Below, piece by piece: positions 1 to 14,700 of a stretch of 32,000 nucleotides of DNA. Below the pieces are notes generated by a model, which saw only the letters and a list, made by a program, of their open reading frames with translations, was not told the origin of the DNA and searched no databases. The stretch comes from Geotalea uraniireducens Rf4 (GTDB lineage Bacteria > Desulfobacterota > Desulfuromonadia > Geobacterales > Geobacteraceae), in assembly GCF_000016745.1 (NCBI RefSeq), contig NC_009483.1:1590001-1622000 (forward strand), written 5' to 3'. Position 1 is the stretch's first letter. The number at the start of each line of letters is the position of its first letter. The translations under genes were made by a program, and so were the position numbers.

Positions 1-759
1 CTCACCGGTCAGGTGGGTAACGGTGGCATCTCATGGACAGGTGATGTGTTCTCACAGCCGCTCGCATTGCAGTTACGCCATTATGGCTGGAGGAAATGGA
101 CAAAGGAAAGCGCAAAGCGGATTGCATCCCCTGTCTTGCTGAAGGCATACCGCCGCGCGCGAATGCCGAAGGATTATTCATGGTGCCAATCATCCGCCAT
201 CCATCCTGATTTTGCTCGCCGCTTGAACCTGCTGGAACAACGATTGAACGACCCTGCCGAGCATCCGCGCAGTCCGCAAGAAAAGCGTTTTCAGATTCTC
301 CAGCCCGGCTGCTCCTTTGTCGGTGCGCTGCATGCCCAAATGGGGGCAGCTCACGGGCTGGAAATACGCGACCCTACTGCAGATGCACGTGTCCTCGCCT
401 TCACGCTCTCGGTGCCCGACTACATCTTCATGGACCCGACGACGGGGCTGGATCGTTGGCTCATCCGCGAGGCCATGAAGGGCCGTCTGCCGGACGAGGT
501 GCGTTTAAATCGCGAGAGGGGTCGTCAGGCGGGCGACCTTGTCCCTCGGCTTCGCGCCTGCGCCGACGAGGTAGAAACCGCCCTGGACGAGTTGGCCGTG
601 GGGCCTGCGGCCGCCTATCTAAATGTGCCTTATATGCGCGAGGTGTGGGCAATGGTCCGCACCGATGACACTCCGGAAGCTTTTCGCAAGTCGGTAACCA
701 TTCTCACCAGAGGCATCATGGCCGGATTGTGGGTGAATGGGTTCTACAATGTAACCTGA
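1..759 (+). CDS. Lasso peptide cyclase (asparagine synthetase-like), C-terminal part; 5' end is off the window
   Basis: Frame 1 is open from base 1 (LTGQVGNGGISWTG...). The product aligns colinearly with the C-terminal third of the 3881..5782 protein: GLEIRDPTAD.RVLAFTLSVPD.IFMDP.TGLDRWLIREAMK, RGRQAGD.VPRLRACA.EVETALDEL, and TRGIMAGLWVNGFY near both C-termini. Confidence 0.85.
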   Translation, partial: LTGQVGNGGISWTGDVFSQPLALQLRHYGWRKWTKESAKRIASPVLLKAYRRARMPKDYSWCQSSAIHPDFARRLNLLEQRLNDPAEHPRSPQEKRFQILQPGCSFVGALHAQMGAAHGLEIRDPTADARVLAFTLSVPDYIFMDPTTGLDRWLIREAMKGRLPDEVRLNRERGRQAGDLVPRLRACADEVETALDELAVGPAAAYLNVPYMREVWAMVRTDDTPEAFRKSVTILTRGIMAGLWVNGFYNVT

Positions 760-820
760 AATTGAGATGAGTGAAAACATTACTTGCAGACGGTGGATAG
801 TGAAGAGGAAAAGTCATCAA

Positions 821-847
821 GGGCAACCAGCGGGTTGCCCTTTTTTT
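821..847 (+). terminator. Rho-independent terminator after the partial cyclase gene
   Basis: GGGCAACC-agcg-GGTTGCCC stem-loop followed by a run of 7 T. Confidence 0.7.
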
Positions 848-892
848 GAATTCGTTCTCATGTTTAAGAAGCGTTTAAATAGAAAATAATAA

Positions 893-920
893 TTGACAGT
901 GTCCTGGTTTGTGGTATTTA
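893..920 (+). promoter_or_regulatory. Candidate sigma70 promoter in an AT-rich spacer upstream of the GNAT gene
   Basis: TTGACA (893-898), 16-nt spacer, TATTTA (915-920). The surrounding ~190 nt is markedly AT-rich compared with the flanks. Confidence 0.35.
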
Positions 921-1079
921 GATTTAACATTAATTTGCAATAATTGTTAAACTTTATTTTTTGGTAAAGCATACCTGGTATGTCAACCAATCTCAGGCGT
1001 TCTTCAGCGATTCAGAAGCATCTGTCGCTCTCATGTGATTTGGTACGATATGTTGGACATGTCGAACGTCTGGATTCCC

Positions 1080-1583
1080 ATGGAAAACCATAACACCGCC
1101 ACGAAAAGGAGCGAAACTATCCATTTCCGCCCCATTACTGATGAGGATATGGAATTCCTGTACCGTCTGTACGCCTCCACGCGGCTCACGGAGATGGCCG
1201 TTACGGGATGGAACGAAACTCAGATCGAGGCTTTCCTGAGGATGCAGTTCAGGCTTCAGCACATGCAGTATATGCAGAACTATCCCGGTGCATCTTTCAA
1301 TATCGTTTTCATTGACGGCACGCCCGCCGGAAGGCTGTATGTGGACCGCAAAGAGGACAGGATGCTGGTCATCGACATCTCGCTGTTGCCTGACTTCAAG
1401 GGAAAAGGCGCGGGGGGAAGAATTTTGCGGGCACTGGTCGAAGAGGCCGATGCCAAGGGGCTTGTCATGAGTCTGCACGTGGAGAGAAGCAACCCGATTC
1501 TGCAGTTCTATAAAGCGCTCGGTTTTAGGGAACTGGAGTTGAGAGGCATGTACTACTACATGGAGAGAGAACTGTTAAATTGA
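1080..1583 (+). CDS. GNAT family N-acetyltransferase
   Basis: Acetyl-CoA binding motif A-like FKGKGAGGRILRALVEEA and a typical GNAT C-terminus (NPILQFYKALGFRE). The start is uncertain: GTG 1035, ATG 1050 and ATG 1080 are all possible and none has a clear SD. Confidence 0.7.
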   Translation: MENHNTATKRSETIHFRPITDEDMEFLYRLYASTRLTEMAVTGWNETQIEAFLRMQFRLQHMQYMQNYPGASFNIVFIDGTPAGRLYVDRKEDRMLVIDISLLPDFKGKGAGGRILRALVEEADAKGLVMSLHVERSNPILQFYKALGFRELELRGMYYYMERELLN

Positions 1584-1591
1584 GGAAAAAG

Positions 1592-1720
1592 ATGGGTGAA
1601 GGTTACCGGCTGTCACACCCAGACATTGGGGATTTCGTTCTTTTCCTCGGACCGGTGGATATCAAAGGGAGAGACGGGATGTATTACGAAGCGGTTTTTA
1701 ACCGTCTGACGTCACGCTAG
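1592..1720 (+). CDS. Small hypothetical ORF (42 aa) just upstream of the tail-collar triplet
   Basis: ATG preceded by GAGGA (1582-1586). Product is MGEGYRLSHPDIGDFVLFLGPVDIKGRDGMYYEAVFNRLTSR. It is below the ORF-track size cutoff. I cannot assign a family with confidence. Confidence 0.3.
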   Translation: MGEGYRLSHPDIGDFVLFLGPVDIKGRDGMYYEAVFNRLTSR

Positions 1721-1835
1721 AGAAAGGAGGTCAGGGGGGGCACGTGGGAAATGAGTACCTATGTGCGTACTCCATGGTTTGCTTCACCTTGGTCGGCAGC
1801 GCATAACAATCCAGATCAAAAGGAGGAACAAAAGC

Positions 1836-2378
1836 ATGAGCGATCCGTATCTTGGCGAGATCAGGATGTTCGGCGGAGACTATGCGCCGGAGAATTGGCA
1901 TTTTTGTGACGGCACTCTGCTGCCGATCAGTGGCTACGATGCGCTCTATTCACTCATCGGCACAGCCTACGGCGGTGACGGGATCAACAACTTCGCCCTG
2001 CCGGACCTGCGGGGTCGGCTTCCCATCGGCCAGGGACAGGGTACCGATTTGACGAACCACCCGGTCGGAGAGAAAAACGGCACTGAAACGGTAGGGTTAA
2101 CCCTGGCTCAAACACCGGCACACACTCATACGGTCAACGCTGCCTCGGGAACCGGCACGCAACCGAGCCCTGAAAACGGTGTCTGGGCTTCACTTGCGGC
2201 AGTCAACCAATTCATAACCCCCGCCGAGGTAAAATCACCCTCCATTATTCACGACATGAATTCGGCAGCCATAGGGACAGGCTATCAGGCTGGCGGAGCG
2301 GCTCACCTCAACATGATGCCCTCTTTCCCGCTGAGCTTTATCATCGCCTTACAGGGCGAATACCCGACAAGAGACTAA
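1836..2378 (+). CDS. Phage tail collar domain protein (MdpB/COG4675-like), paralogue 1
   Basis: N-terminus PYLGEIRMFGGDYAPENWHFCDGTLLPISGYDALYSLIGTAYGGDG..FALPDLRGR is the tail-collar signature. The C-terminus AHLNMMPSF..IIALQGEYPTR is typical of the family. AGGAGG lies 9 nt upstream of ATG 1836. Confidence 0.85.
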   Translation: MSDPYLGEIRMFGGDYAPENWHFCDGTLLPISGYDALYSLIGTAYGGDGINNFALPDLRGRLPIGQGQGTDLTNHPVGEKNGTETVGLTLAQTPAHTHTVNAASGTGTQPSPENGVWASLAAVNQFITPAEVKSPSIIHDMNSAAIGTGYQAGGAAHLNMMPSFPLSFIIALQGEYPTRD

Positions 2379-2394
2379 CATGGAGGAAATACTC

Positions 2395-2940
2395 ATGGCT
2401 GAACCTTTCTTAGGAGAAATAAGAATATTCCCGTTTGATTTTGCGCCGCGTGGCTGGGCGCTGTGCAACGGCGCGCTGCTGCCGATCGTTCAGAACCAGG
2501 CGCTCTATTCCCTGCTCAATACGACTTTCGGCGGCGACGGCAAAACTAACTTCGGTCTGCCGGATTTGCAGGGACGTGTTCCCATGCCTCCCGGAACCAA
2601 TCCGGTCTGCGGTAACATAGTCGCAGCCGGAAAAAAAGATGGCTCCGAAACGGTAACCCTCACGACCTCTCAAATCCCGCCGCATACCCATTCGGCTTTG
2701 GCAAACAGTATCAATGCCGACTTTGCGTCGCCCGTCACCCTCGCGGCCGGCAATATCTGGGCAAAAGCCGATGACCCCAGCTCAAATCCGGTCAATGCAT
2801 ATGAGTCCGGCGCGAATGCAGTCATGGACCAGAGCGCACTTTCGACTGCGGGTGGCGGCGGAGCCCATAACAACATGCAGCCGTATCAGGTGGTAAACTA
2901 TTGCATCGCCCTTATGGGTTTATATCCGACGCGGCCCTAG
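2395..2940 (+). CDS. Phage tail collar domain protein, paralogue 2
   Basis: PFLGEIRIFPFDFAPRGWALCNGALLPIVQNQALYSLLNTTFGGDG..FGLPDLQGR, then GGGGAHNNMQPYQVVNYCIALMGLYPTR. GGAGGA (2383-2388) sits upstream of ATG 2395. Confidence 0.85.
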   Translation: MAEPFLGEIRIFPFDFAPRGWALCNGALLPIVQNQALYSLLNTTFGGDGKTNFGLPDLQGRVPMPPGTNPVCGNIVAAGKKDGSETVTLTTSQIPPHTHSALANSINADFASPVTLAAGNIWAKADDPSSNPVNAYESGANAVMDQSALSTAGGGGAHNNMQPYQVVNYCIALMGLYPTRP

Positions 2941-2957
2941 GAAAGGAGGATTGATAC

Positions 2958-3491
2958 ATGGCTATTCCATTTATAGGTGAAATAAGGACTTTCGCGGGGA
3001 ATTTTGCGCCCTATGGCTGGTTTTATTGTCAAGGCCAACGGTTGAGCATTACCGAGTTTCAGGCCCTCTATGCGGTGATTGGTGCCACGTACGGCGGAGA
3101 TGGCAGTACCTATTTCAACCTGCCGAATCTGCAGGCGTACGCCCCCATGGGGCAAGGCGCCGGCACCGGCTTGACGCCGCGTACGCTCGGTCATGCCTGT
3201 GGCGTGCCGGCTACAACTCTGATCGACAACCAGATGCCCCCCCACACCCACGCGGCACAAGGGACCAACGCAACAGGTACCAGCAATAATCCCGCAAATC
3301 GAATCTGGGCCAAGGTTATATCGACACCTCAAATTCAACCGTATGGCAAGACGGTAGCCAGTACGCCGGTTGCCATGAAAGCCGATGCCCTTGCTTCCGC
3401 AGGTGGTGGATCTACTCACAGCAACATGCAACCTTACCAGGGGATCAACTTTATTATGGCCTGGCAGGGTGATTTCCCAGTCAGGCAGTAA
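2958..3491 (+). CDS. Phage tail collar domain protein, paralogue 3
   Basis: PFIGEIRTFAGNFAPYGWFYCQGQRLSITEFQALYAVIGATYGGDG..FNLPNLQ, then GGGSTHSNMQPYQGINFIMAWQGDFP. AAGGAGGA lies upstream of the ATG. Confidence 0.85.
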   Translation: MAIPFIGEIRTFAGNFAPYGWFYCQGQRLSITEFQALYAVIGATYGGDGSTYFNLPNLQAYAPMGQGAGTGLTPRTLGHACGVPATTLIDNQMPPHTHAAQGTNATGTSNNPANRIWAKVISTPQIQPYGKTVASTPVAMKADALASAGGGSTHSNMQPYQGINFIMAWQGDFPVRQ

Positions 3492-3528
3492 GCGTCAGGT
3501 ATCGTTGTTCGGTGACATAACTTGTGTT

Positions 3529-3558
3529 GCCCCCTCTTCCGCGACGGGAAAAGGGGGC
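3529..3558 (+). other. GC-rich hairpin between tail-collar gene 3 and the lasso precursor ORF (no T-tract)
   Basis: GCCCCCTCTTCC-gcgacg-GGAAAAGGGGGC pairs at 11 of 12 positions. No U-run follows, so it is a terminator-like or processing/stability hairpin rather than a canonical terminator. Confidence 0.4.
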
Positions 3559-3632
3559 GTTGCAACCTGCCGAAGCCACGCGACGCCCACTAAACAGTAA
3601 AGCTCAGTATTCCAACAACGGAGGGAACAACA

Positions 3633-3803
3633 ATGGATCGTGATAAACAGTCCTGTCCAGACAGCAGCGTTATCAGCGGAGAATCAGTCGCAGCATCCAC
3701 CCGCAGCGCATGGAGTGCCCCGACTATTACGCGGATTGAGATCAAGCGGACCATGGCCGGAGCTTCGGTAGCTTTGGATTCAAGTTTATTCACCACTCAC
3801 TGA
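3633..3803 (+). CDS. Candidate lasso peptide precursor (A gene), 56 aa, absent from the ORF track
   Basis: GGAGGG lies 7 nt upstream of ATG 3633. Product is MDRDKQSCPDSSVISGESVAASTRSAWSAPTITRIEIKRTMAGASVALDSSLFTTH. It ends 77 nt upstream of the cyclase start on the same strand. Thr is at the penultimate leader position if the core starts at A42. Asp is at core position 8. A WxxPxI motif sits in the leader. Confidence 0.6.
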   Translation: MDRDKQSCPDSSVISGESVAASTRSAWSAPTITRIEIKRTMAGASVALDSSLFTTH

Positions 3804-3880
3804 TCTGATTATTTGTAGCCCCGAAAACAGTTCATAATTTGAGAAAATGTCCTGCAGATATGGTGGACGACCGGAAACGG

Positions 3881-5782
3881 ATGAGTGGAATTTTTGGCAT
3901 ATTTAATCGTAATGGCGATCCGGTTGCATCACATACGCTGGAGACGATGCAGTGCGTCATGGCTGAATGGGGACCGGACGGCGGTGACATACTGCTGGAT
4001 GGGGCCGTCGGTTTCGGACAGATGCGCCATTTTACTACTCCGGAAGCGCAATTTGAACTGATGCCGGTTAAATCCCGCGAATCGTTTTCATCCTGGAATG
4101 ACGGACGGAAGTTTGCGTTTACTGCCGCAGGACGTCTGGACAACAGGGAAGAACTCATCGGACGACTTTCAGCCAGCGATCGGCACACAGCAATTCCCGA
4201 CAGCGAACTCATGCTACGCGCCTATCAGGAGTGGGGAGAAAACTGCCCGGCGCGTCTGTTCGGCGACTGGGCCTTTGCCGTATGGCACCCGGAAGAAAAG
4301 CAGCTGTTTCTCGCGCGGGACCACCATGGACACACCGCGCTCTATTACTACGTCGATCCCCGCTTCTTTGTGTTCGCTTCTTCGCGCCAGGCACTGCTCG
4401 CTCTGCATCTGGCGCCGATGGAAATGGATGAACTCTACCTGGCCCAGGTACTGGTTTCATCGCCTGCCTATCACGGCGAGCGCACTATCTATAAACCGGT
4501 AAAACGTCTCCCCCCAGCCCACTCTCTTACGGTAACCCCTGACCATATGTCTACCCACCGCTACTGGCGTCTGGAAGATACGGCGGAACTGCATTTGCCG
4601 CGAAGGGAAGATTATGTAGCGGCTTTTACGGAACTGTTCGATGAGGCAGTGCGGTGCCGCCTTCGTTCGGACAGAAAGATCGCCGTCTCCCTGAGCGGTG
4701 GGCTGGATTCCGGATCGGTTGCCGCAACTGCGGCGAAATTTCTGAAAAGGGATGACAAGCGCCTATCCGCATTTTCCTCCGCACCATTATCGGATACCGG
4801 CATGTATGTGGGAAAACGCTTCGGTGACGAATTTTCTTTCGCGCAGAAGACCGCCGACCATTGCGGCAATATTGACCTGTATAAAATTACTGCCGACACA
4901 ATCTCGCCTATCCAGGCAATTCGCGCGATGTTGACGGTCAATAACGAACCCGCCCATGCCGCCGGAAATTTCTTCTGGCTTCAAGCTATCCGTCAGGCCG
5001 CCCGCTCCCACGGAAGCCGCGTACTCCTGACCGGGCAGATGGGAAACGCCGGGATCTCGTGGACCGGCTCGGTTTTTTCTCAACCGGCGGCCTTCCAGCG
5101 ACGACATTTGGGCTGGCAGCGCTGGGCGAAAGAACTGGCAAAACAGTATACGCCCTCTTCATTGTTGAATGCCTACCGGCAGTTGCGAAAACCACCTCCT
5201 GCACTGGGAAGCTTTTCCGCTTTGCACCCTGATCTGGCGCGCAGACTGAACCAGGCAGAACGCATGATGAGCGATACCGTGCACCATCCGCGTACCCCCT
5301 TGGAACAGCGCTGTCATATTATTATGCCAGGACGTTCCCATGGCGGATTTCGCCATGCCGAGAACGGTGTTGTTTACGGTCTTGAGATCCGCGACCCCAC
5401 CGCCGATGTCCGTGTGCTGGCCTTTACCCTGTCCGTGCCCGACCATATCTTCATGGACCCGAAGACAGGACTGGACCGTTGGCTCATCCGCGAGGCGATG
5501 AAAGAATGCCTGCCGGATGAAGTGCGCCTGAATCGCCGGAGAGGGCGTCAGGCGGGTGACATTGTCCCACGTCTGCGCGCCTGTGCCGCCGAGGTCGAAA
5601 CCGCCCTGGACGAACTGGCCTGTGGGCCTGCTGCCGCCTTTGTTAATGTGCCCTATATGCGCGAAGTGTGGGCGATGGTCCTTACAAAAGACACCCCGGA
5701 TACGTTCCTTCTGTCATTAACCGTCCTCACCAGGGGAATCATGGCCGGGTTGTGGGTGAACGGGTTCTACCATGTTTCCTGA
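3881..5782 (+). CDS. Lasso peptide cyclase (asparagine synthetase B homologue, McjC-like)
   Basis: The N-terminus MSGIFGIF has Ser in place of the AsnB nucleophile Cys. The PP-loop is SLSGGLDSGS. The length and C-terminal domain are typical. Upstream TTG 3839 and ATG 3860 are alternative starts. Confidence 0.9.
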   Translation: MSGIFGIFNRNGDPVASHTLETMQCVMAEWGPDGGDILLDGAVGFGQMRHFTTPEAQFELMPVKSRESFSSWNDGRKFAFTAAGRLDNREELIGRLSASDRHTAIPDSELMLRAYQEWGENCPARLFGDWAFAVWHPEEKQLFLARDHHGHTALYYYVDPRFFVFASSRQALLALHLAPMEMDELYLAQVLVSSPAYHGERTIYKPVKRLPPAHSLTVTPDHMSTHRYWRLEDTAELHLPRREDYVAAFTELFDEAVRCRLRSDRKIAVSLSGGLDSGSVAATAAKFLKRDDKRLSAFSSAPLSDTGMYVGKRFGDEFSFAQKTADHCGNIDLYKITADTISPIQAIRAMLTVNNEPAHAAGNFFWLQAIRQAARSHGSRVLLTGQMGNAGISWTGSVFSQPAAFQRRHLGWQRWAKELAKQYTPSSLLNAYRQLRKPPPALGSFSALHPDLARRLNQAERMMSDTVHHPRTPLEQRCHIIMPGRSHGGFRHAENGVVYGLEIRDPTADVRVLAFTLSVPDHIFMDPKTGLDRWLIREAMKECLPDEVRLNRRRGRQAGDIVPRLRACAAEVETALDELACGPAAAFVNVPYMREVWAMVLTKDTPDTFLLSLTVLTRGIMAGLWVNGFYHVS

Positions 5783-6578
5783 TTTCCTAGCCGACGTCTT
5801 TATCAATTACTCCGCTGTCCCTCCGTATCTTGATGGCGCACGATCCCGCGGCGTGCTCTGGCAGGCCGCGCCTGGTCGTTTTCTGCTCGACCTGCCCGAT
5901 GTGGCACGTTTTCTGGTGGAGTCCGGAACAAAGGTAACTATCGATCCGTCGCCAACGGCTGAAGAAGCGGATCTGCGCCGTTTTGCGCGGATGGCCCCGC
6001 TGGCGGCGCTCTGTTATCAGCGGAGCATGCTGGCTCTTCACGCTGCCGCCGTGGTCGGTCCAAGCGGTGCGATCCTGATCGCCGGGGATTCCGGAGCGGG
6101 CAAATCGACCCTTCTGGCAGCTATGCTGAAACGGGAGTGGAGCTTTCTTGCCGACGACCTGGCGGCGGTGTCTTTGGCTGAAAACGGACTGTCGATGGTA
6201 TATCCGGCCTTTCCGGAACTGGCTCTCTGGTCCGACGCCAGGGGAAAACTGGCGTTTGACGATAGCGACACCGGCAGACATCTCCTGCCCCGGGTAGAGA
6301 GCTTCGGCACCACGCCACAACCGCTGCGCGCACTCTTCCGCCTTGCCGTCCATAAGGGCGAGATTGAACTGGCCGACGTCACCGGGACAAGACTCTTCGA
6401 CACCCTCACCACGCTCTCGTACAACAGCCGGATTGCCGATGCCCTGTTGGAGCGCGCCGCCTTCATGCGCCAGGCTAGCGCCATCGCCCGGACGGTTCCG
6501 GTGCGCACCCTGCGAAGACCGCGTGATCGCTGGTGTGCGGGTGAGCTGGCCGATCTGCTGGAGGAATCCTATTCATGA
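5772..6578 (+). CDS. HPr kinase-like (HprK C-terminal domain-like) protein 1
   Basis: P-loop ILIAGDSGAGKSTLLAAM is followed by FLADDLAAV, as in the HprK C-terminal domain. The start overlaps the cyclase stop by 11 nt. Confidence 0.8.
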   Translation: MFPDFLADVFINYSAVPPYLDGARSRGVLWQAAPGRFLLDLPDVARFLVESGTKVTIDPSPTAEEADLRRFARMAPLAALCYQRSMLALHAAAVVGPSGAILIAGDSGAGKSTLLAAMLKREWSFLADDLAAVSLAENGLSMVYPAFPELALWSDARGKLAFDDSDTGRHLLPRVESFGTTPQPLRALFRLAVHKGEIELADVTGTRLFDTLTTLSYNSRIADALLERAAFMRQASAIARTVPVRTLRRPRDRWCAGELADLLEESYS

Positions 6579-7483
6579 CATATGCCTACTCATTCCACGG
6601 ACTGACCCTTTCCCTCCCCTTTCCCTGCCCGTTCCTGCCGCGCGTCGAGACCGTTTCCGCACCGGATGTGACGGTGGTCTACGGTCCGGTGGCCAGGGAA
6701 CTGGAACACGCCATGGCAACTGATGACAGTTGGGCAGCGGGGTATTGCTGGCAGGCAGCTCCGGGGCGCTACCTTCTCAAAGGGGGGATGAAGTCCGGGC
6801 GCTTTCTGGTGGAAGGCGGCACTAGCATTACCCTTCAGCGCAACGAGAATGCCGAAGATAAACGTATTCTGTTTCATCTTCTACATCCGGTAACCGCCGC
6901 CCTGTTCTGTCAGCGGGGCCTTTTGGCGTTGCACGCCAGCACGGCACACACACCGGCGGGAACCATTGCCCTGTGCGGCAGGTCACAGGCGGGCAAATCC
7001 ACTACCCTTGCGGCCCTGCTCCAGAAAAAAGGGTGCGCCATGGTCTCCGACGATATTACCATTGTGCGCTGTGCGGCGCATGACCGCGTTGAAGTCGTGG
7101 CCGGTTCGAGCGTTATGCACCTGTGGGACGACGCGGCGTACGGCATAGGTCTTGATATATCGGGCTGCGACCGCCACCCGGTGAGACGCGGCAAAGCGGC
7201 CCTGACCGCGCCGAGCATGCCATCTTCGGGGGCGACGCTGCTCCGGAAGCTCTGTATCCTGGAACCCGGTACGGGAAAAATTGTCGGCGTATCGAGGGTG
7301 ACAGGCGCTGACAAACTCGATGCCCTCTTGGAGTGCGTGTACGGTCCGCTTTTTCAGGAAGAGCACCCCGGGTTGTTCCCCCTCTTTTCCGCCACCGCCG
7401 AACAGGCGGACATATTCCGCATCCGCCGCCCCGAAAGCCGCTGGAGTCTGGACGATGTGGTTTCGGTGATACTCGATGCGTAA
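6575..7483 (+). CDS. HPr kinase-like protein 2 (divergent paralogue)
   Basis: P-loop IALCGRSQAGKSTTLAAL is followed by MVSDDITIV. The N-terminal region resembles kinase 1 (W.AAPGR.LL...G.FLVE.GT..T). It has an ATGA overlap with the upstream gene. Confidence 0.8.
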   Translation: MTYAYSFHGLTLSLPFPCPFLPRVETVSAPDVTVVYGPVARELEHAMATDDSWAAGYCWQAAPGRYLLKGGMKSGRFLVEGGTSITLQRNENAEDKRILFHLLHPVTAALFCQRGLLALHASTAHTPAGTIALCGRSQAGKSTTLAALLQKKGCAMVSDDITIVRCAAHDRVEVVAGSSVMHLWDDAAYGIGLDISGCDRHPVRRGKAALTAPSMPSSGATLLRKLCILEPGTGKIVGVSRVTGADKLDALLECVYGPLFQEEHPGLFPLFSATAEQADIFRIRRPESRWSLDDVVSVILDA

Positions 7484-8345
7484 GATTATCTGGCTGGCAT
7501 CATACCCGAAATCTGGCAACACCTGGATGCGCGTACTGCTGACCAACTACCTGCGCAACAGCGCCACACCCGTTGATATCAACAAGCTGGAAGGCGGTCC
7601 CATTGCCAGCGCACGCCTCTGGTTCGACGAATGGGTCGGCGTCGAGGCTGCGGAACTGGACGATAACGTCATAGAACGTCTGCGCCCCGGCGTCTATCGC
7701 TGCATGGCGGGCGAAACCCACGACACGTTGTACATGAAAGTTCACGATGCCTGGGGGCGCACTGACCGGGGGGAAGCGCTCTTTCCGGCGGATGTCACCG
7801 CCGGGGTGGTCTATATCGTGCGCAACCCGCTGGATATGGCCATGTCATGCGCCCATCACTGGGGGGTAGACATTGATACGGCGGCGGAAAGCATGTGCGA
7901 CCCGACGTTTGCCACCTCCCGTTCGCTTGGCGGACTGTCGGACCAGTTGCGCCAGAGCATGCTCTCTTGGAGCGGCCATGTGCAAAGCTGGCTGGATGAA
8001 TCGGGGCTGCCGGTGCATGTGGTGCGTTATGAAGACCTGCTTGCCGCTCCGGCGGCAACGTTCGGCGGGGTTGTCCGTTTCTGCGGTCTCCCTTTTGACG
8101 CTGCCCGGGTTGGCAAGGCGGTCGCCTTTTCCGATTTCTCCGAATTGCAGCGGCAGGAACGGGAAAAAGGGTTTCGCGAACGGTCGCTACGGGCTCCCGG
8201 CTCGTTTTTTCGTCGTGGACAGGCGGGCGCATGGCGCGAAGAACTGCCGCCTGAACTGGTCAACCGTCTGATCGCGGCCCATGGAGAGATGATGAAGAGG
8301 TTCGGATATACAACTCATCAAGGAGGGAATGACAATGTCGATTGA
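7476..8345 (+). CDS. PAPS-dependent sulfotransferase family protein
   Basis: IIWLASYPKSGNTWMR matches the 5'-PSB loop. IVRNPLDMAMS matches the 3'-PB region. FFRRGQAGAWREEL matches the C-terminal motif. It overlaps kinase 2 by 8 nt. Confidence 0.85.
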   Translation: MRKIIWLASYPKSGNTWMRVLLTNYLRNSATPVDINKLEGGPIASARLWFDEWVGVEAAELDDNVIERLRPGVYRCMAGETHDTLYMKVHDAWGRTDRGEALFPADVTAGVVYIVRNPLDMAMSCAHHWGVDIDTAAESMCDPTFATSRSLGGLSDQLRQSMLSWSGHVQSWLDESGLPVHVVRYEDLLAAPAATFGGVVRFCGLPFDAARVGKAVAFSDFSELQRQEREKGFRERSLRAPGSFFRRGQAGAWREELPPELVNRLIAAHGEMMKRFGYTTHQGGNDNVD

Positions 8346-8631
8346 TATGGAGAGCCTCATCGTACGCAACAACGAGATGATGTCCAGCGCCATGGATCGG
8401 GAGCTTGTGATCCTGAACATGGCAAAGGGCAACTACATCGGCCTTGACGAGATCGGCCGTCGCATATGGGAGCTGTTGGAAACGCCCCTTGGTGCGGAAG
8501 AACTGTGCGGGTTGTTGGGCCGGGAGTTCGACGCTTCCCCGGAGCAGATCACGGCGGACGTCCTGCCTTTCCTGGTCGAATTGGAAAGCGAGGGGATGGT
8601 GCATGATGTTACGGGCGGACGATCTGCGTAA
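8335..8631 (+). CDS. PqqD-like lasso leader-recognition protein (B1 / RRE)
   Basis: VILNMAKGNYIGLDEIGRRIWELLETPLGAEELCGLL..EF...PEQITADVLPFLVELESEGMV is the PqqD family pattern. AGGAGGG (8321-8327) lies 7 nt upstream of ATG 8335. ATG 8329 is an alternative start. Confidence 0.8.
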   Translation: MSIDMESLIVRNNEMMSSAMDRELVILNMAKGNYIGLDEIGRRIWELLETPLGAEELCGLLGREFDASPEQITADVLPFLVELESEGMVHDVTGGRSA

Positions 8632-9067
8632 GCTGTTCAGCCTTACCCTGGCGGAGGTTTGCCTGCTGCTGGAGGCCGCTTTCTGGCTCGGTATCTGCCG
8701 GCTGGCAATACCGCTTTTGCCCTTCCGCTGGATTGCGCCGTATCTGGGGACCCACATGGCCGAGTCCGCCAGTGTGCTTGATCCGCACGGCCGTGAGGTG
8801 CCCCTTGCCGTATCCAGGGCGATAGTCCGGGCGGCCTGGCGGCTCCCCTGGGATTGCAAATGCCTGGCCCAGGCCATGACGGGTAAGGCTATGCTCAAAC
8901 GGCGGGGGGTGCCGAGCACGCTTTACCTGGGGGTTGCCAAGGACAAGGAGCAGCTTGCCGCCCATGCCTGGCTGCGGTGCGGCGATATAATCCTGACCGG
9001 GGGGCAGGGAAAAGAGCGGTTTACGGTCGTATCATCCTTCGGGGACGACATCCGGTCACGCGGATAG
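8603..9067 (+). CDS. Lasso peptide leader peptidase (B2, transglutaminase-like Cys protease)
   Basis: The catalytic-type Cys lies in WDCKCLAQAM and the His in LAAHAWLRCGD. The N-terminal hydrophobic helix is typical of B2 proteins. GAGGGGA lies upstream of ATGATG 8603. It overlaps B1 by 29 nt. Confidence 0.85.
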   Translation: MMLRADDLRKLFSLTLAEVCLLLEAAFWLGICRLAIPLLPFRWIAPYLGTHMAESASVLDPHGREVPLAVSRAIVRAAWRLPWDCKCLAQAMTGKAMLKRRGVPSTLYLGVAKDKEQLAAHAWLRCGDIILTGGQGKERFTVVSSFGDDIRSRG

Positions 9068-9110
9068 GCGCAGCCGGCCTCAGCGATGACAGAAATATAA
9101 GGAAAATGAA

Positions 9111-9548
9111 ATGGCAACATGGTTTTGGTATGCAATAGCGGCAGCTATTCTTTACGGGTTGCACCAGGTCTTCACGAAGCTCGCTGCAGACAACATCTCC
9201 GATGGCCTTGGCGGCTTGGTGGTGGAAGCCGCTGCAGCTGTTACCATCGCAATATACCTTGTGTTTCTCTGGCTGACCAACAGTTGGACACAGAAAGCTA
9301 CAGCCACAGGAATATGGTACTCGATACTCACGGGAATCAGTGTTGGCGCAGGCACGGTCATGTTTTTCCTTCTCTTTCAAAAAGGCGGCCCGCTCTCAGC
9401 TGTTCCCATGGTGCTGGCGGGAGGCGCCGCACTCATGGCCGTTAGCGGCATCCTTTTTTTTAAAGAGCCTGCATCTTGGCCAAGGCTCCTCGGAATTGCG
9501 TTTTCAATCGCCGGGCTTTTTTTATTGAGGTATTCGCCTGAAAAATGA
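9111..9548 (+). CDS. Small EamA/DMT-type integral membrane protein (possible exporter)
   Basis: 145 aa, four to five hydrophobic spans, single EamA-like half-transporter pattern. Same strand, 43 nt after B2. Confidence 0.65.
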   Translation: MATWFWYAIAAAILYGLHQVFTKLAADNISDGLGGLVVEAAAAVTIAIYLVFLWLTNSWTQKATATGIWYSILTGISVGAGTVMFFLLFQKGGPLSAVPMVLAGGAALMAVSGILFFKEPASWPRLLGIAFSIAGLFLLRYSPEK

Positions 9549-10444: not shown

Positions 10445-10768
10445 ATGCCGCTTAACATTGAGATAATCGGCTCACTTGCAGCAGGCGACCAAATAGCGTT
10501 GAAGCGCCATTCAATCGTGCGTATGCGCCAACGTCGGATATCTGCCGACGAAGTGAAAGAAGCGCTTCTCTCCTGCAGGCTGATTGAGGATTATCCAACT
10601 GATCGCCCCTTGCCCAGCGGGCTGGTCCTTGGCTATACTGCCAACGATAGGGTCATTCATGTAGTTGTTGCCATAGATGAAGATGAACCAATGCTCTGGG
10701 TGATTACCGTGTACGAGCCGACCATTGACGAGTGGGAGGAAGGTTTTGACCGAAGGAGAACAGTATGA
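10445..10768 (+). CDS. DUF4258-like toxin-type protein
   Basis: The pattern H...RM.QR.IS..EV.EAL......EDYP.D.P.PS.L.LG.T...R..HVV.A.......VITVYEP...W is what I recall for DUF4258. It overlaps the downstream zinc-finger gene by 4 nt (ATGA). Confidence 0.75.
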   Translation: MPLNIEIIGSLAAGDQIALKRHSIVRMRQRRISADEVKEALLSCRLIEDYPTDRPLPSGLVLGYTANDRVIHVVVAIDEDEPMLWVITVYEPTIDEWEEGFDRRRTV

Positions 10769-12835: not shown

Positions 12836-14485
12836 TTATGCGCCCAGCGCTGCCTTCAGGTCCGCATCTGCCGTGGTGATCTGGCCGATGTTGAAGTTTT
12901 CCACCAGGAAGTTGAGGACGTTCGGTGTCAGGTACGCCGGCAGGGCCGGTCCGAGCTTGATGTTCTTGATCCCCAGGTGGAGGAGCGAGAGCAGGATCAC
13001 ATGGGCCTTCTGCTCATACCAGGAGAGGATGAAGGAGAGCGGCAGGTCGTTGACTCCGCAGTTGAAGGCGCCTGCCAGGGCCAGGGCGATCTGGACCGCC
13101 GAGTAGGCGTCGTTGCACTGCCCCACGTCGAGGAGGCGCGGGATGCCGCCGATGTCGCCGAACTCCAGCTTGTTGAAGCGGTACTTGCCGCAGGCGAGCG
13201 TCAGGATGACGCAGTCTTTGGGCACTATCTCGGCCAGTTCCGTGAAGTAGTTGCGCCCCGGTTTGGCGCCGTCGCAGCCGCCGATGAGGAAGAAATGCTT
13301 GATGGCGCCGCTCTTGACCCCTTCGATGACCTTGTCTGCCACCCCCAGGACCGCATTGTGGCCGAAGCCGGTGAGGATCTCCTTGCCCGGTGCATCGGGC
13401 AGGTCGGGGCACTCAAGGGCCTTGTTGATGACCTCGGAGAAGTTCCAGCCGGTCATGTGCTTGATGCCGGGCCAGCCGACCATGCCCCAGGTGAAGAGCC
13501 GGTCTTTGTAGGAGTCGGCCGGGCGCTGGATGCAGTTGGTGTTGAAGATGATGGCGCCGGGGAAGTCCGGGAATTCCTTGTGCTGATCCTGCCAGGCGCC
13601 GCCGAAGTTGCCGTAGAGGTGCGAATACTTCTTGAGGCCGGGATAGCCGTGGGCCGGCAGCATTTCGCCGTGGGTGTAGACGTCAATTCCCTTGCCTTCG
13701 GTCTGCTTGAGGAGCTCCTCGATCATGCGCAGGTCGTGGCCGGAGACGAGGATCCCCTTGTTCTTTCTGGTGCCGAGCTGGACCTTGGTCGGGACCGGCT
13801 GCCCGTAGTGGTCGATATGTCCCTGGTTGAGCATCCCCATCACCTTGATGTTCATCTTGCCGCATTCCATGGAGAGGCCGACAAAGTCCATCAGGCCTTT
13901 GGTTGGGTCGGTGGTGGCGGCGAGGGCCTTGTGGAAGAAGGCGAAGACTTCTTCGTCGGTCTTGCCGAGGATGAAGGCGTGGTCGGCATAGGCAGCCATC
14001 CCCTTGAGGCCGTAAATGAGCACCTCGATGGCGGAACGGATATCCGGGTCGGTGTGGTGGGTGTTGATGCCGTGGGCCTCTCCCTGCTTGACCAGGCCGA
14101 CAAGATCATTGGCGATCACCCAGGCGGCGGGCCCGTCAGAGATCTGCGGGGCGTGATTGCCGGTCTTTTCCCGATAGGCGGTCTCATACAGTGCCTTGAT
14201 CTTCTCCTTGTTGTCGAAGCACTTGCGGAGCTTGGCGGCGATGCTGACCGGGTCGAAGTCCACGTTGGTGACGGTGGTGAAGAGCCCTTCGAACATGAAA
14301 AGGTCGATGGTCTCGTCCCTGGCGCCGAATTCGCGGGCCTTGTCGGCATAGATGGCGAGTCCTTTCAGACCGTAGATCATCAAGTCCTGCAGGGCGGCAA
14401 CCTCGGGATTTTTACCGCAAACCCCCATGATATCACAGCCGGTACCCTTGGCAGCCTGTTCACACTGGTTACAAAACATTGACAT
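12836..14485 (-). CDS. hcp: Hybrid cluster protein (hydroxylamine reductase)
   Basis: N-terminus MSMFCNQCEQAAKGTGC..GVCGK carries the Cys cluster. The 549-aa length and colinear Hcp motifs fit throughout. AAGGAGGAG lies upstream of ATG 14485. The upstream ORF-track extension lacks an SD. Confidence 0.95.
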   Translation of the reverse strand: MSMFCNQCEQAAKGTGCDIMGVCGKNPEVAALQDLMIYGLKGLAIYADKAREFGARDETIDLFMFEGLFTTVTNVDFDPVSIAAKLRKCFDNKEKIKALYETAYREKTGNHAPQISDGPAAWVIANDLVGLVKQGEAHGINTHHTDPDIRSAIEVLIYGLKGMAAYADHAFILGKTDEEVFAFFHKALAATTDPTKGLMDFVGLSMECGKMNIKVMGMLNQGHIDHYGQPVPTKVQLGTRKNKGILVSGHDLRMIEELLKQTEGKGIDVYTHGEMLPAHGYPGLKKYSHLYGNFGGAWQDQHKEFPDFPGAIIFNTNCIQRPADSYKDRLFTWGMVGWPGIKHMTGWNFSEVINKALECPDLPDAPGKEILTGFGHNAVLGVADKVIEGVKSGAIKHFFLIGGCDGAKPGRNYFTELAEIVPKDCVILTLACGKYRFNKLEFGDIGGIPRLLDVGQCNDAYSAVQIALALAGAFNCGVNDLPLSFILSWYEQKAHVILLSLLHLGIKNIKLGPALPAYLTPNVLNFLVENFNIGQITTADADLKAALGA

Positions 14486-14541
14486 GGTTACTCCTCCTTT
14501 TTTACGGGACAAACTCCCTGTGTAGGCTTTAATATCTGATA

Positions 14542-14569
14542 AGTATAGCCTGTCTCCGGCGTATTTCAA
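14542..14569 (-). promoter_or_regulatory. Candidate hcp promoter
   Basis: On the minus strand: TTGAAA, 16-nt spacer, TATACT. It lies about 55 nt upstream of the hcp ATG. Confidence 0.45.
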
Positions 14570-14601
14570 TCTTGTCCGGAATGGACCTTCTTCCAATTCC
14601 A

Positions 14602-14700
14602 AATCAAGGCGCTATCTTCGTTGGCTCGTCTTCGGCTCCTCAACGTACTATCTGTACGCCTTCATCACCTCACTCCTCGCCGCCTTGATTTCATCCTTGA
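14602..14700. repeat. Structured intergenic element (family shared with 17831..17962)
   Basis: The perfect 10-bp inverted repeat AATCAAGGCG (14602-14611) / CGCCTTGATT (14681-14690) encloses the hairpin CGTAC-tatct-GTACG. The blocks ATCTTCG, TTCGGC, CGTAC..TGTACGCC and CCTTGATTT recur in the same order at 17831-17962. Confidence 0.45.

What the first reader, a model, noticed from the sequence alone, without database searches (positions are those of the whole stretch)
3633..3803. Unannotated 56-aa precursor ORF; predicted core AGASVALDSSLFTTH ends in His rather than Ser
The ORF is too short for the supplied track. It has a GGAGGG SD at ideal spacing and sits directly upstream of the cyclase.

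Features that fit a lasso precursor:
- Thr40-Met41 precede Ala42, giving the conserved Thr at leader position -2.
- Asp is at core position 8, which would make an Ala1-Asp8 macrolactam.
- The 15-aa core resembles the sungsanpin/chaxapeptin layout (x3-S-x2-L-D-S...). Phe12 is a plausible plug residue.
- The leader has W27-x-x-P30-x-I32, which recalls the YxxPxL RRE-recognition motif. The spacing to Thr(-2) is 2 residues shorter than canonical.

Oddities:
- The 41-aa leader is long.
- Core residue 1 is Ala rather than Gly.
- The C-terminal residue is His. Characterised kinase-type lasso precursors are phosphorylated on a C-terminal Ser.
- The tail offers S50, S51, T54 and T55 as candidate acceptors for two kinases and a sulfotransferase.
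Basis: partly seen in the sequence, partly recalled or inferred. Interest (0 to 1): 0.75.

Follow-up and report, generated by a model that had tools for sequence, protein, structure and literature searches.

The report
Unannotated lasso-peptide precursor gene, His-terminated core
The 56-codon ORF is a real but unannotated lasso-peptide precursor gene in a widespread, uncharacterised cluster type with two kinases and a sulfotransferase, and precursors of this type have dropped the C-terminal serine that the better-known kinase-type lasso peptides need.

Summary
Observation confirmed. ORF 3633-3803 (+) encodes MDRDKQSCPDSSVISGESVAASTRSAWSAPTITRIEIKRTM|AGASVALDSSLFTTH. GGAGGG lies 7 nt before the ATG, and the ORF ends 77 nt upstream of the cyclase ATG (3881).

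The cluster is A-C-K1-K2-sulfotransferase-B1-B2 and matches Geotalea uraniireducens.

About 45 small ORFs at the same position in about 35 related loci from at least 8 phyla form one precursor family. In a 30-sequence alignment the only invariant residues are W27, P30, T40 and D49, which are W(-15), P(-12), T(-2) and Asp8. This supports cleavage after Met41 and an Ala1-Asp8 ring.

The "oddities" are family norms:
- W at -15 is the paeninodin-like leader signature.
- Core residue 1 is Gly in only 3 of 44 cores.
- Long leaders are usual.

The C-terminal residue is Ser in only 5 of 44 family cores. It is Ser in 22 of 22 recognisable precursors beside more distant kinase homologues. So the missing Ser is a real signal, but it belongs to the family.

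His is conserved in the nearest relatives (VGASVAGDSSLFTTH, FGAHSGTDSTVFTTPTH). The conserved hydroxyls are a ring Ser at position 4 or 5 and Ser/Thr13 (Thr54 here). These are the best acceptor candidates.

The products and modifications are untested. I rate this a new variant of a known kind.

The parts
3620..3625 (+). Shine-Dalgarno GGAGGG, 7 nt before the ATG
   Evidence: Read directly. GGAG(G)GA..CAAC.ATGGA is conserved in L163.
3633..3803 (+). Precursor gene A (56 aa plus stop)
   Evidence: It is the only profile hit in the window. Homologues sit at the same position in related loci.
3633..3755 (+). Leader peptide, residues 1-41. The RRE-binding motif is W27 (3711-3713), P30 (3720-3722) and I32 (3726-3728). 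Thr40 at position -2 is 3750-3752.
   Evidence: W27, P30 and T40 are invariant in alignment A2. The W(-15)xxPxL motif was seen bound in the PbaB1-PbaA structure (PMC13381572).
3756..3800 (+). Core peptide AGASVALDSSLFTTH. Asp8 is D49 (3777-3779). Ring Ser4 is S45. Thr13 is T54. The C-terminal residue is His56.
   Evidence: D/E at position 8 in 44 of 44 cores, S/T at position 13 in 34 of 44, ring S/T at position 4 or 5 in 35 of 44. The closest cores are VGASVAGDSSLFTTH, FGAHSGTDSTVFTTPTH and FGAGSATDSSLFTT.
3881..5782 (+). Lasso macrolactam cyclase C (Asn-synthase-like, starts MSGIFG...)
   Evidence: Pfam Asn_synthase and GATase_7. NCBIfam lass_lactam_cya, E = 2e-105.
5772..6578 (+). Kinase K1 (HprK-like, 268 aa)
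   Evidence: HprK_rel_A and Hpr_kinase_C hits. The AlphaFold2 model has pLDDT 92 and matches the HprK/P and PEPCK fold. The His, P-loop and Asp are conserved in 41-45 of 45 orthologues.
6575..7483 (+). Kinase K2 (paralogue of K1, 302 aa)
   Evidence: 34% identical to K1, E = 7e-31. The His, the GxSxxGK[ST]T motif and the DD motif are conserved in all 33 orthologues alignable at these positions, of 35.
7476..8345 (+). PAPS-type sulfotransferase (289 aa)
   Evidence: Pfam Sulfotransfer_1, E = 1e-21. The closest solved structures are the glycopeptide sulfotransferases Teg12, Teg14 and StaL.
8329..8631 (+). B1, a PqqD-like RiPP recognition element
   Evidence: Pfam PqqD and NCBIfam lasso_PqqD_Bac. 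Homologous to TbiB1 (5v1u) and to the lasso chaperone 9x90_B.
8603..9067 (+). B2 leader peptidase (transglutaminase-like)
   Evidence: Transglut_core3. NCBIfam lasso_biosyn_B2, 111.6 bits against a cut-off of 33.
9111..9548 (+). Small EamA/SMR-like membrane protein. It is a possible exporter, but membership in the cluster is uncertain.
   Evidence: Weak EamA hit. Not found in the related loci by tblastn.
1836..3491 (+). Three tandem Phage-tail-Collar-domain genes directly upstream of A. Their role is unknown.
   Evidence: The same block is upstream of A/C in L006, L011, L012, L083, L084, L163, L164 and the P0126 contig.
1..759 (+). 3' part of a second lasso cyclase (C2). Its own precursor lies just outside the window.
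   Evidence: NCBIfam lass_lactam_cya matches the C-terminal part. In L001, the 57-aa gene A2 is at 2030-2203 and C2 at 2291-4210, 64% identical to C.

Best explanation
ORF 3633-3803 is the structural gene (A) of a class II lasso peptide.

Inferred pathway:
1. The B1 recognition element binds the leader through W27-x-x-P30-x-I32, at positions -15, -12 and -10.
2. While the peptide is still linear and leader-bound, the two HprK-like kinases phosphorylate internal Ser/Thr hydroxyls of the core, and the Teg12-like sulfotransferase sulfates one. The best candidates from family conservation are ring Ser45 (core S4, equivalent to the family's Ser5) and Thr54 (core T13). The C-terminus is not a candidate.
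3. B2 cuts after Met41, using Thr40 at position -2.
4. Cyclase C joins the amine of Ala42 to the side chain of Asp49. This gives an 8-residue ring threaded by the tail SSLFTTH, with Phe12 and/or a modified Thr13/14 and His15 as plugs.

The predicted unmodified lasso has a mass of 1457.715 Da.

What is shown here: the ORF, its conservation, the four invariant residues and the enzyme families. What is inferred: the cleavage site, the ring, the order of steps, the modification sites and the threading.
For: - Gene context A-C-K1-K2-ST-B1-B2.
- The same gene order occurs in more than 30 loci. These come from Desulfobacteraceae, Acidobacteriota, Brocadiaceae, Geobacteraceae, Chloroflexi, Sporomusa, Solirubrobacterales and Clostridia, each with 1-5 homologous small ORFs.
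- Invariant W27, P30, T40 and D49. D/E at position 8 in 44 of 44 cores.
- Protein-level selection against L021. Conserved Shine-Dalgarno sequence, start and stop against L163.
- A paralogous precursor 5 kb upstream has the same leader and an Asp8.
- The closest relatives, P0126 and P0124, share the SSLFTTH-type tail and the GNAT-Collar x3-A-C synteny.
- B1 is homologous to the solved lasso recognition elements TbiB1 and 9x90.
- The W(-15) leader geometry matches PbaA (PMC13381572).
- K1 has an HprK/PEPCK fold. Both kinases keep their catalytic residues.
- There are precedents for non-C-terminal phosphorylation: BsfK on Ser3 and LppK on S3.
Against: - There are no experimental data. Related proteobacterial clusters are often silent in heterologous hosts (the bsf cluster, PMC10368454).
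- The window core departs from the family ring consensus G4-S5. It has S4-V5, a pattern shared only with P0126, so the ring-Ser equivalence is an assumption.
- No sigma-70-like promoter or attenuator hairpin was detected around the ORF.
- Nothing shows directly that the kinases or the sulfotransferase act on this peptide.
- No dedicated ABC exporter is present.
Confidence: 0.8

Rival explanations
1. The precursor is real, but the ring is Gly43-Asp49. Cleavage would follow Ala42, giving a 7-membered ring with Thr at position -3.
For: Gly at core position 2 is conserved in all four members of the closest sub-clade: window, P0126, P0124 and L021. Gly is the classical first residue.
Against: Across the family, position 2 is Gly in only 10 of 28 cores. 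The Thr(-2)-to-Asp8 spacing is invariant. W at -15 matches the experimentally anchored PbaA numbering.
Confidence: 0.05
2. The gene is a cryptic or decaying precursor copy. The tailoring enzymes serve mainly the paralogous precursor (LSTGSVNDGDGSTNEG), which keeps the consensus G4-S5 and S12-T13, and this peptide is made unmodified or not at all.
For: The window core lacks G4-S5. Degenerate precursor copies do exist in this family: the L003 cores AGIGSPP, EMEEST and YEATAYV lack Asp8.
Against: The same GASVA ring and SSLFTTH tail are kept in P0126. In L163 a His-terminated relative is the only precursor, sitting directly before C and a truncated downstream gene in the K1 position. Substitutions are mostly synonymous. 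The Shine-Dalgarno sequence is intact.
Confidence: 0.08
3. The C-terminal His functionally replaces the C-terminal Ser and is itself the acceptor, for example as a phosphohistidine.
For: His is the last residue in three of the four closest cores. His at position 15 recurs in L011, L012 and L018.
Against: The family C-terminus is otherwise T, N, G, S, P, I, L, V, A, F, K or D. L021 ends in ...FTT. The characterised HprK-like RiPP kinases named in the papers read here (paeninodin-type kinases, BsfK, LppK) all phosphorylate Ser.
Confidence: 0.03
4. The ORF is a chance open frame in an intergenic spacer.
For: It is short and has no Pfam or NCBIfam hit. The word-based homologue search found only the peptide itself.
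Against: All the comparative evidence above.
Confidence: 0.01

Closest known systems
Paeninodin-like (kinase-associated) lasso peptides such as PadeA and PbaA, with HprK-like kinases such as ThcoK
   Same: Split B1/B2. An HprK-like kinase in the cluster. Leader motif WxxPx[L/I/V] with Trp at -15 and Thr at -2. The non-Gly first residue (paeninodin starts with Ala) is recalled from memory..
   Different: There are two paralogous kinases and a Sulfotransfer_1 enzyme, and no nucleotidyltransferase or ABC exporter. The defining C-terminal Ser acceptor is absent: His here, and Ser in only 5 of 44 family cores. The host is a deltaproteobacterium, not a member of the Bacillota.
Proteobacterial polyphosphorylated lasso peptides (SyanK type, Sphingobium yanoikuyae)
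   Same: A proteobacterial lasso cluster with an HprK-like kinase acting on the linear precursor. K1 is 25-39% identical to the kinases of such loci recovered here.
   Different: The recognisable precursors in those loci end in Ser, 22 of 22, for example ...DQDPNQPS and ...GLNTHS. This family does not end in Ser.
BsfA/BsfK of Bradymonas sediminis
   Same: A deltaproteobacterial kinase-type lasso cluster. The kinase targets a Ser inside the future ring (Ser3) rather than the C-terminus, and is helped by B1 (PMC10368454).
   Different: BsfA has Y(-17)xxPxL, Ile at -2, Gly1 and Ser3. Here the equivalents are W(-15), Thr at -2, Ala1 and Ser4. The bsf cluster as described in the passages read has a single kinase and no sulfotransferase is mentioned.
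Sungsanpin and chaxapeptin (15-aa lasso peptides from Streptomyces with 8-residue rings)
   Same: Sungsanpin is a 15-residue peptide. From memory, their cores are GFGSKP[I/L]DSFGL.., which share S4, L7, D8 and S9 with AGASVALDSSLFTTH and form an 8-residue ring.
   Different: Their sequences could not be retrieved here. From memory, they are actinobacterial clusters without kinases or a sulfotransferase. The family consensus here is xxxGSxxDGxxGS, so the match looks coincidental.
Teg12, Teg14 and StaL glycopeptide sulfotransferases
   Same: They are the closest solved relatives of the cluster's sulfotransferase, with E = 2e-16 to 1e-10. From memory, they are PAPS-dependent O-sulfation enzymes that act on a peptide natural product.
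   Different: From memory, they sulfate phenolic hydroxyls of non-ribosomal glycopeptides. Only 4 of 44 cores here contain Tyr, so an aliphatic Ser/Thr hydroxyl is the likely target.

Membership tests
Lasso peptide precursor (RiPP, class II) | A small ORF co-directional with, and adjacent to, a lasso cyclase (C), an RRE (B1) and a leader peptidase (B2) | tested here: met
   B2 scores above the NCBIfam cut-off. The cyclase matches lass_lactam_cya at E = 2e-105.
Lasso peptide precursor (RiPP, class II) | Leader motif [Y/W]xxPx[L/V/I/F/A] | tested here: met
   W27-S-A-P30-T-I32. W and P are invariant in 30 homologues. The motif definition comes from PMC13381572.
Lasso peptide precursor (RiPP, class II) | Thr at the penultimate leader position | tested here: met
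   T40 is invariant in alignment A2.
Lasso peptide precursor (RiPP, class II) | Asp or Glu at core position 7-9 to form the macrolactam | tested here: met
   D49 is core position 8. D/E at position 8 in 44 of 44 family cores.
Lasso peptide precursor (RiPP, class II) | A threaded lariat topology of the mature product | not testable with these tools
   Needs MS/MS, NMR, and carboxypeptidase or heat stability assays.
Paeninodin-like kinase-type lasso peptides | An HprK-like kinase encoded in the cluster | tested here: met
   K1 and K2. The K1 model matches the HprK/P and PEPCK fold.
Paeninodin-like kinase-type lasso peptides | A WxxP leader motif with Trp at -15 | tested here: met
   W27 is 15 residues before Ala42. 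PbaA has W at -15.
Paeninodin-like kinase-type lasso peptides | A C-terminal Ser as the phospho-acceptor | tested here: not met
   The C-terminus is His. Ser is C-terminal in 5 of 44 family cores, against 22 of 22 in the control loci.
Paeninodin-like kinase-type lasso peptides | Phosphorylation of the linear precursor before cyclisation | not testable with these tools
   Needs in vitro kinase assays with and without B1.
BsfA-type ring-phosphorylated lasso peptides | Ser3 acceptor, Ile at -2, Y(-17)xxPxL leader | tested here: not met
   The core has Ala3 and Ser4. The leader has Thr at -2 and W at -15.
Sungsanpin/chaxapeptin-like lasso peptides | Core homology (GFGSKPxDSFGL..) and an actinobacterial A-C-B1-B2 cluster | not tested
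   Reference sequences could not be retrieved from the held papers. The cluster composition here differs.

The most novel reading that the evidence does not exclude
The C-K1-K2-sulfotransferase family makes lasso peptides that carry both phosphate and sulfate esters on conserved internal hydroxyls: the ring Ser at position 4 or 5, and Ser/Thr13. This would be the first O-sulfated lasso peptide and a Ser/Thr-O-sulfated RiPP. In the many family members whose tails are almost all Gly, Ser and Thr, the charged ester rather than a bulky side chain would act as the steric plug holding the thread.
Probability: 0.3. Interest if true: 0.8.

Novelty: new variant of a known kind. Interest (0 to 1): 0.55.

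Why it matters
Lasso peptides are valued scaffolds, and new tailoring chemistry on them is actively sought. The 2026 JACS review read here does not mention a sulfotransferase, and none of the passages returned from it lists a sulfated lasso peptide. Reviews from 2014 and 2021 note sulfotransferase genes in lasso clusters only as unexplained.

This locus supplies a defined substrate and enzymes from a named organism (the sequence matches Geotalea uraniireducens; that it can be cultured is my recollection, not tested here). The comparative data turn a vague question, which hydroxyl is modified, into a short testable list: Ser45, Thr54, and then Ser50, Ser51 and Thr55. They also show that the C-terminal-Ser rule used to recognise kinase-type precursors fails for a whole widespread family. 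That matters for automated precursor scoring.

Tried and rejected
- A word-indexed homologue search with the peptide found only the peptide itself. Pfam and NCBIfam gave no hit for it.
- Rfam found nothing over 3000-4500. The promoter and terminator scan found none in 3400-3950. The A-C spacer has no significant hairpin, z = -0.3. The upstream spacer fold is only marginal, z = -1.65.
- Antisense-frame openness across homologues was uninformative, because short frames are often open.
- The key papers are not held: PMC4919450 (paeninodin, JBC), PMC3458324 (Maksimov 2012) and PMC6092944. So I could not check whether this exact ORF was already listed as the predicted Geobacter uraniireducens precursor. 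A full-text search for the core string found 0 papers.
- The sungsanpin and chaxapeptin sequences could not be retrieved.
- I looked for a link between loss of K2 and retention of a C-terminal Ser. L013 has one kinase, and all five of its precursors end in Ser. This is a single locus, so I rejected it as evidence.
- GNAT-type lasso acetyltransferases (bioRxiv 2024.12.31.630886) act on Lys in actinomycete peptides. This core has no Lys, so that analogy was dropped.

Full report
**1. The observation**

The + strand has ATG at 3633 and TGA at 3801-3803. The product is MDRDKQSCPDSSVISGESVAASTRSAWSAPTITRIEIKRTMAGASVALDSSLFTTH, 56 aa. This ATG is the first start codon after the upstream in-frame stop. 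GGAGGG is at 3620-3625, 7 nt before it.

**2. Gene context**

| Window coordinates | Feature | Evidence |
|---|---|---|
| 3881-5782 | Asn-synthase-like lasso cyclase, NCBIfam lass_lactam_cya E = 2e-105 | |
| 5772-6578 | HprK-like P-loop protein K1 | |
| 6575-7483 | HprK-like P-loop protein K2, 34% identical to K1 | |
| 7476-8345 | Sulfotransfer_1 enzyme; closest solved relatives are the glycopeptide sulfotransferases Teg12, Teg14 and StaL | |
| 8329-8631 | PqqD-type recognition element B1, homologous to TbiB1 and to lasso chaperone 9x90_B | |
| 8603-9067 | B2 peptidase, above the NCBIfam cut-off | |
| 9111-9548 | Small EamA-like membrane protein | |

An AlphaFold2 model of K1 has pLDDT 92. It matches the HprK/P catalytic domain and PEPCK.

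The catalytic His, P-loop and Asp are kept in 41-45 of 45 K1 orthologues. They are kept in all 33 K2 orthologues that could be aligned at those positions, out of 35. Both proteins therefore look catalytically competent.

K1 is 100% identical to an NCBI protein of Geotalea (Geobacter) uraniireducens on a 5.14-Mb contig. Letzel et al. 2014 list a lasso cluster for strain Rf4 (Gura_1351). They cite earlier genome mining and remark that the HPr kinase and sulfotransferase genes in such clusters are unexplained (PMC4289311).

The peptide itself is present in the protein collection only from Logan read assemblies. So it is indeed unannotated in the NCBI-derived sets.

**3. Is it a gene?**

I aligned kinase homologues (A1) and scanned genomes and metagenomes with the alignment. 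The order C-K1-K2-ST-B1-B2 recurs in more than 30 loci. They come from Desulfobacteraceae, Acidobacteriota, Brocadiaceae, Geobacteraceae, Chloroflexi, Sporomusa, Solirubrobacterales, Clostridia and Anaerolinea.

Each locus has one to five small ORFs beside the cyclase with a common design. A profile built from them hits exactly one place in the window, which is this ORF.

A 30-sequence alignment has only four invariant columns: W27, P30, T40 and D49. These are the recognition-element anchor residues, the Thr at -2 and the ring-forming acid. They are the residues that define a lasso precursor.

Further support:
- Against L021, 21 of 29 residues are identical, but 14 of those use different codons. 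Nucleotide identity is 57%.
- Against L163, the Shine-Dalgarno sequence, ATG and stop codon are conserved while the N-terminal part of the leader has diverged.
- A paralogous precursor lies about 5 kb upstream, just outside the window, with its own cyclase. It is ...TWSKPIVTRINIKKTM|LSTGSVNDGDGSTNEG, and it also has Asp at position 8.

**4. Closest relatives**

An exhaustive phmmer search of 1.84 billion representative proteins returned two close relatives:
- P0126: ...KRTF|VGASVAGDSSLFTTH
- P0124: ...KRTM|FGAHSGTDSTVFTTPTH

Both lie in the same GNAT-Collar x3-A-C synteny.

With L021 (FGAGSATDSSLFTT) they define a sub-clade with G2, A3, D8, S9, S/T10, L/V11, F12, T13 and T14. Three of the four end in His. 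The His is therefore conserved locally and is not a sequencing or frame artefact.

**5. The "oddities"**

- **Spacing.** The canonical motif is Y(-17), P(-14), L(-12) (PMC10368454). In the paeninodin-like PbaA leader, whose complex with PbaB1 was solved, the Trp is at -15. Trp is nearly invariant in paeninodin-like precursors (PMC13381572). The window peptide and all its relatives have W at -15, P at -12 and I/V/L at -10. If -17 numbering were applied, the acid would fall at core position 6, which is too small for a ring.
- **Residue 1.** It is F, A, L, I, V and others across the family, and Gly in only 3 of 44 cores.
- **Leader length.** Leaders of 30-45 residues are the norm in the family.
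- **C-terminus.** Ser is last in only 5 of 44 family cores. The others end in T, N, G, P, I, H, L, V, A, F, K or D.

As a control, I took 22 precursors recognisable beside more distant kinase homologues found in the same scans. All 22 end in Ser, for example ...DQDPNQPS and ...GLNTHS. A few further candidates that do not end in Ser (L044, L053/54, L130) were of uncertain authenticity, and I left them out.

The literature also no longer supports a universal C-terminal-Ser rule. BsfK phosphorylates Ser3 of BsfA, and LppK phosphorylates S3 of its core.

**6. Candidate modification sites**

| Feature (44 cores) | Count |
|---|---|
| D/E at position 8 | 44 of 44 |
| G at position 4 | 35 of 44 |
| S at position 5 | 29 of 44 |
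| S/T at position 4 or 5 | 35 of 44 |
| S/T at position 13 | 34 of 44 |
| S/T at positions 12-14 | 41 of 44 |
| Tyr anywhere in the core | 4 of 44 |

The window core has S4 and T13, which are Ser45 and Thr54. I infer that these are the prime acceptors. Ser50, Ser51 and Thr55 are secondary candidates. Because Tyr is rare, the sulfotransferase must target an aliphatic hydroxyl if it acts on the peptide at all.

Many family tails have no bulky residue, for example GDGSTNEG and GTNGSN. This raises the speculative idea that the ester itself acts as the plug.

**7. Proposed mechanism (inferred)**

B1 binds the leader. K1, K2 and the sulfotransferase modify the linear core. B2 cleaves after Met41. 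C forms the Ala1-Asp8 isopeptide around the tail.

Predicted masses: 1457.715 Da unmodified, +79.966 per phosphate and +79.957 per sulfate.

**8. Rival explanations**

- A Gly43-Asp49 seven-membered ring is disfavoured by the invariant T(-2)-to-D8 spacing.
- A decaying copy is disfavoured by conservation of the same ring and tail in P0126, and by L163, where a His-terminated relative is the only precursor.
- A phospho-His acceptor is disfavoured by the variable C-terminus across the family.
- A chance ORF is excluded.

**9. Novelty**

The cluster has been noticed since 2012-2014. Lasso precursors and kinase tailoring are both known.

None of the papers I found in the held library characterises a lasso cluster with a sulfotransferase or with two kinases. 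The June 2026 review text contains no mention of a sulfotransferase, and none of the passages returned from it lists sulfation. I could not open the 2012, 2013 and 2016 papers that may already list this ORF.

My verdict is a genuine precursor that is a new variant of a known kind.

Noticed in passing
window 1836-2378, 2395-2940, 2958-3491 (+): Three tandem Phage-tail-Collar (PF07484) genes sit directly upstream of the precursor. The same triple block sits next to A/C in L006, L011, L012 (Sporomusa), L083, L084, L163, L164 and the P0126 contig. It also sits beside more distant kinase-type lasso clusters: L027 Hydrogenophaga, L035 Rhizobium, L041 Niveispirillum, L112 and L114. This cross-phylum linkage has no known role. 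No held paper mentions 'tail collar' together with 'lasso peptide'.
   Followed up: partly
window 1-759 (+); L001 2030-2203 and 2291-4210: A second lasso cyclase, 64% identical to C, runs off the left edge of the window. Its own 57-aa precursor (...KKTM|LSTGSVNDGDGSTNEG) lies just outside. There are two A-C pairs but only one B1/B2/K1/K2/ST set, so the tailoring and leader-processing enzymes are probably shared. The P0126 contig has the same layout.
   Followed up: partly
window 1080-1583 (+) and 1592-1720 (+): A RimI-like GNAT acetyltransferase and a 42-aa DUF6916-like ORF lie between the second cyclase and the Collar genes. The GNAT is conserved in the same position in the P0124 and P0126 contigs. 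It may be another tailoring enzyme, although the core has no Lys.
   Followed up: no
L013 (Chloroflexi MAG) 682-9144: This locus has only one kinase plus the sulfotransferase, and five precursor-like ORFs. All five end in Ser (…TVDS, …AGYS, …NWSS, …DSYS, …VECS), and most lack the ring Ser5. This hints that loss of the C-terminal Ser goes with gain of the second kinase. It is a single locus only.
   Followed up: partly
L003 7156-7311, 7538-7681, 7876-7962: Three leader-bearing ORFs have truncated cores without Asp8 (AGIGSPP, EMEEST, YEATAYV). They look like decayed precursor copies next to an otherwise intact C-K1-K2-ST-B1 cluster.
   Followed up: no
L004, L008, L010, L103: Three to five tandem precursor genes per cluster have near-identical leaders and varied cores. 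This multi-precursor arrangement is typical of the family.
   Followed up: no
window 10445-10768 (+) and 12836-14602 (-): A DUF4258 protein and a hybrid-cluster-protein-like ORF lie downstream. They are probably unrelated to the lasso cluster.
   Followed up: no
P0127 (156 aa): One called protein contains two precursor-like units in tandem (…IELKRTL|EGAGSGAD… and …IELKRTM|FGSSSLTD…). It is either a read-through gene call or a fused double precursor.
   Followed up: no
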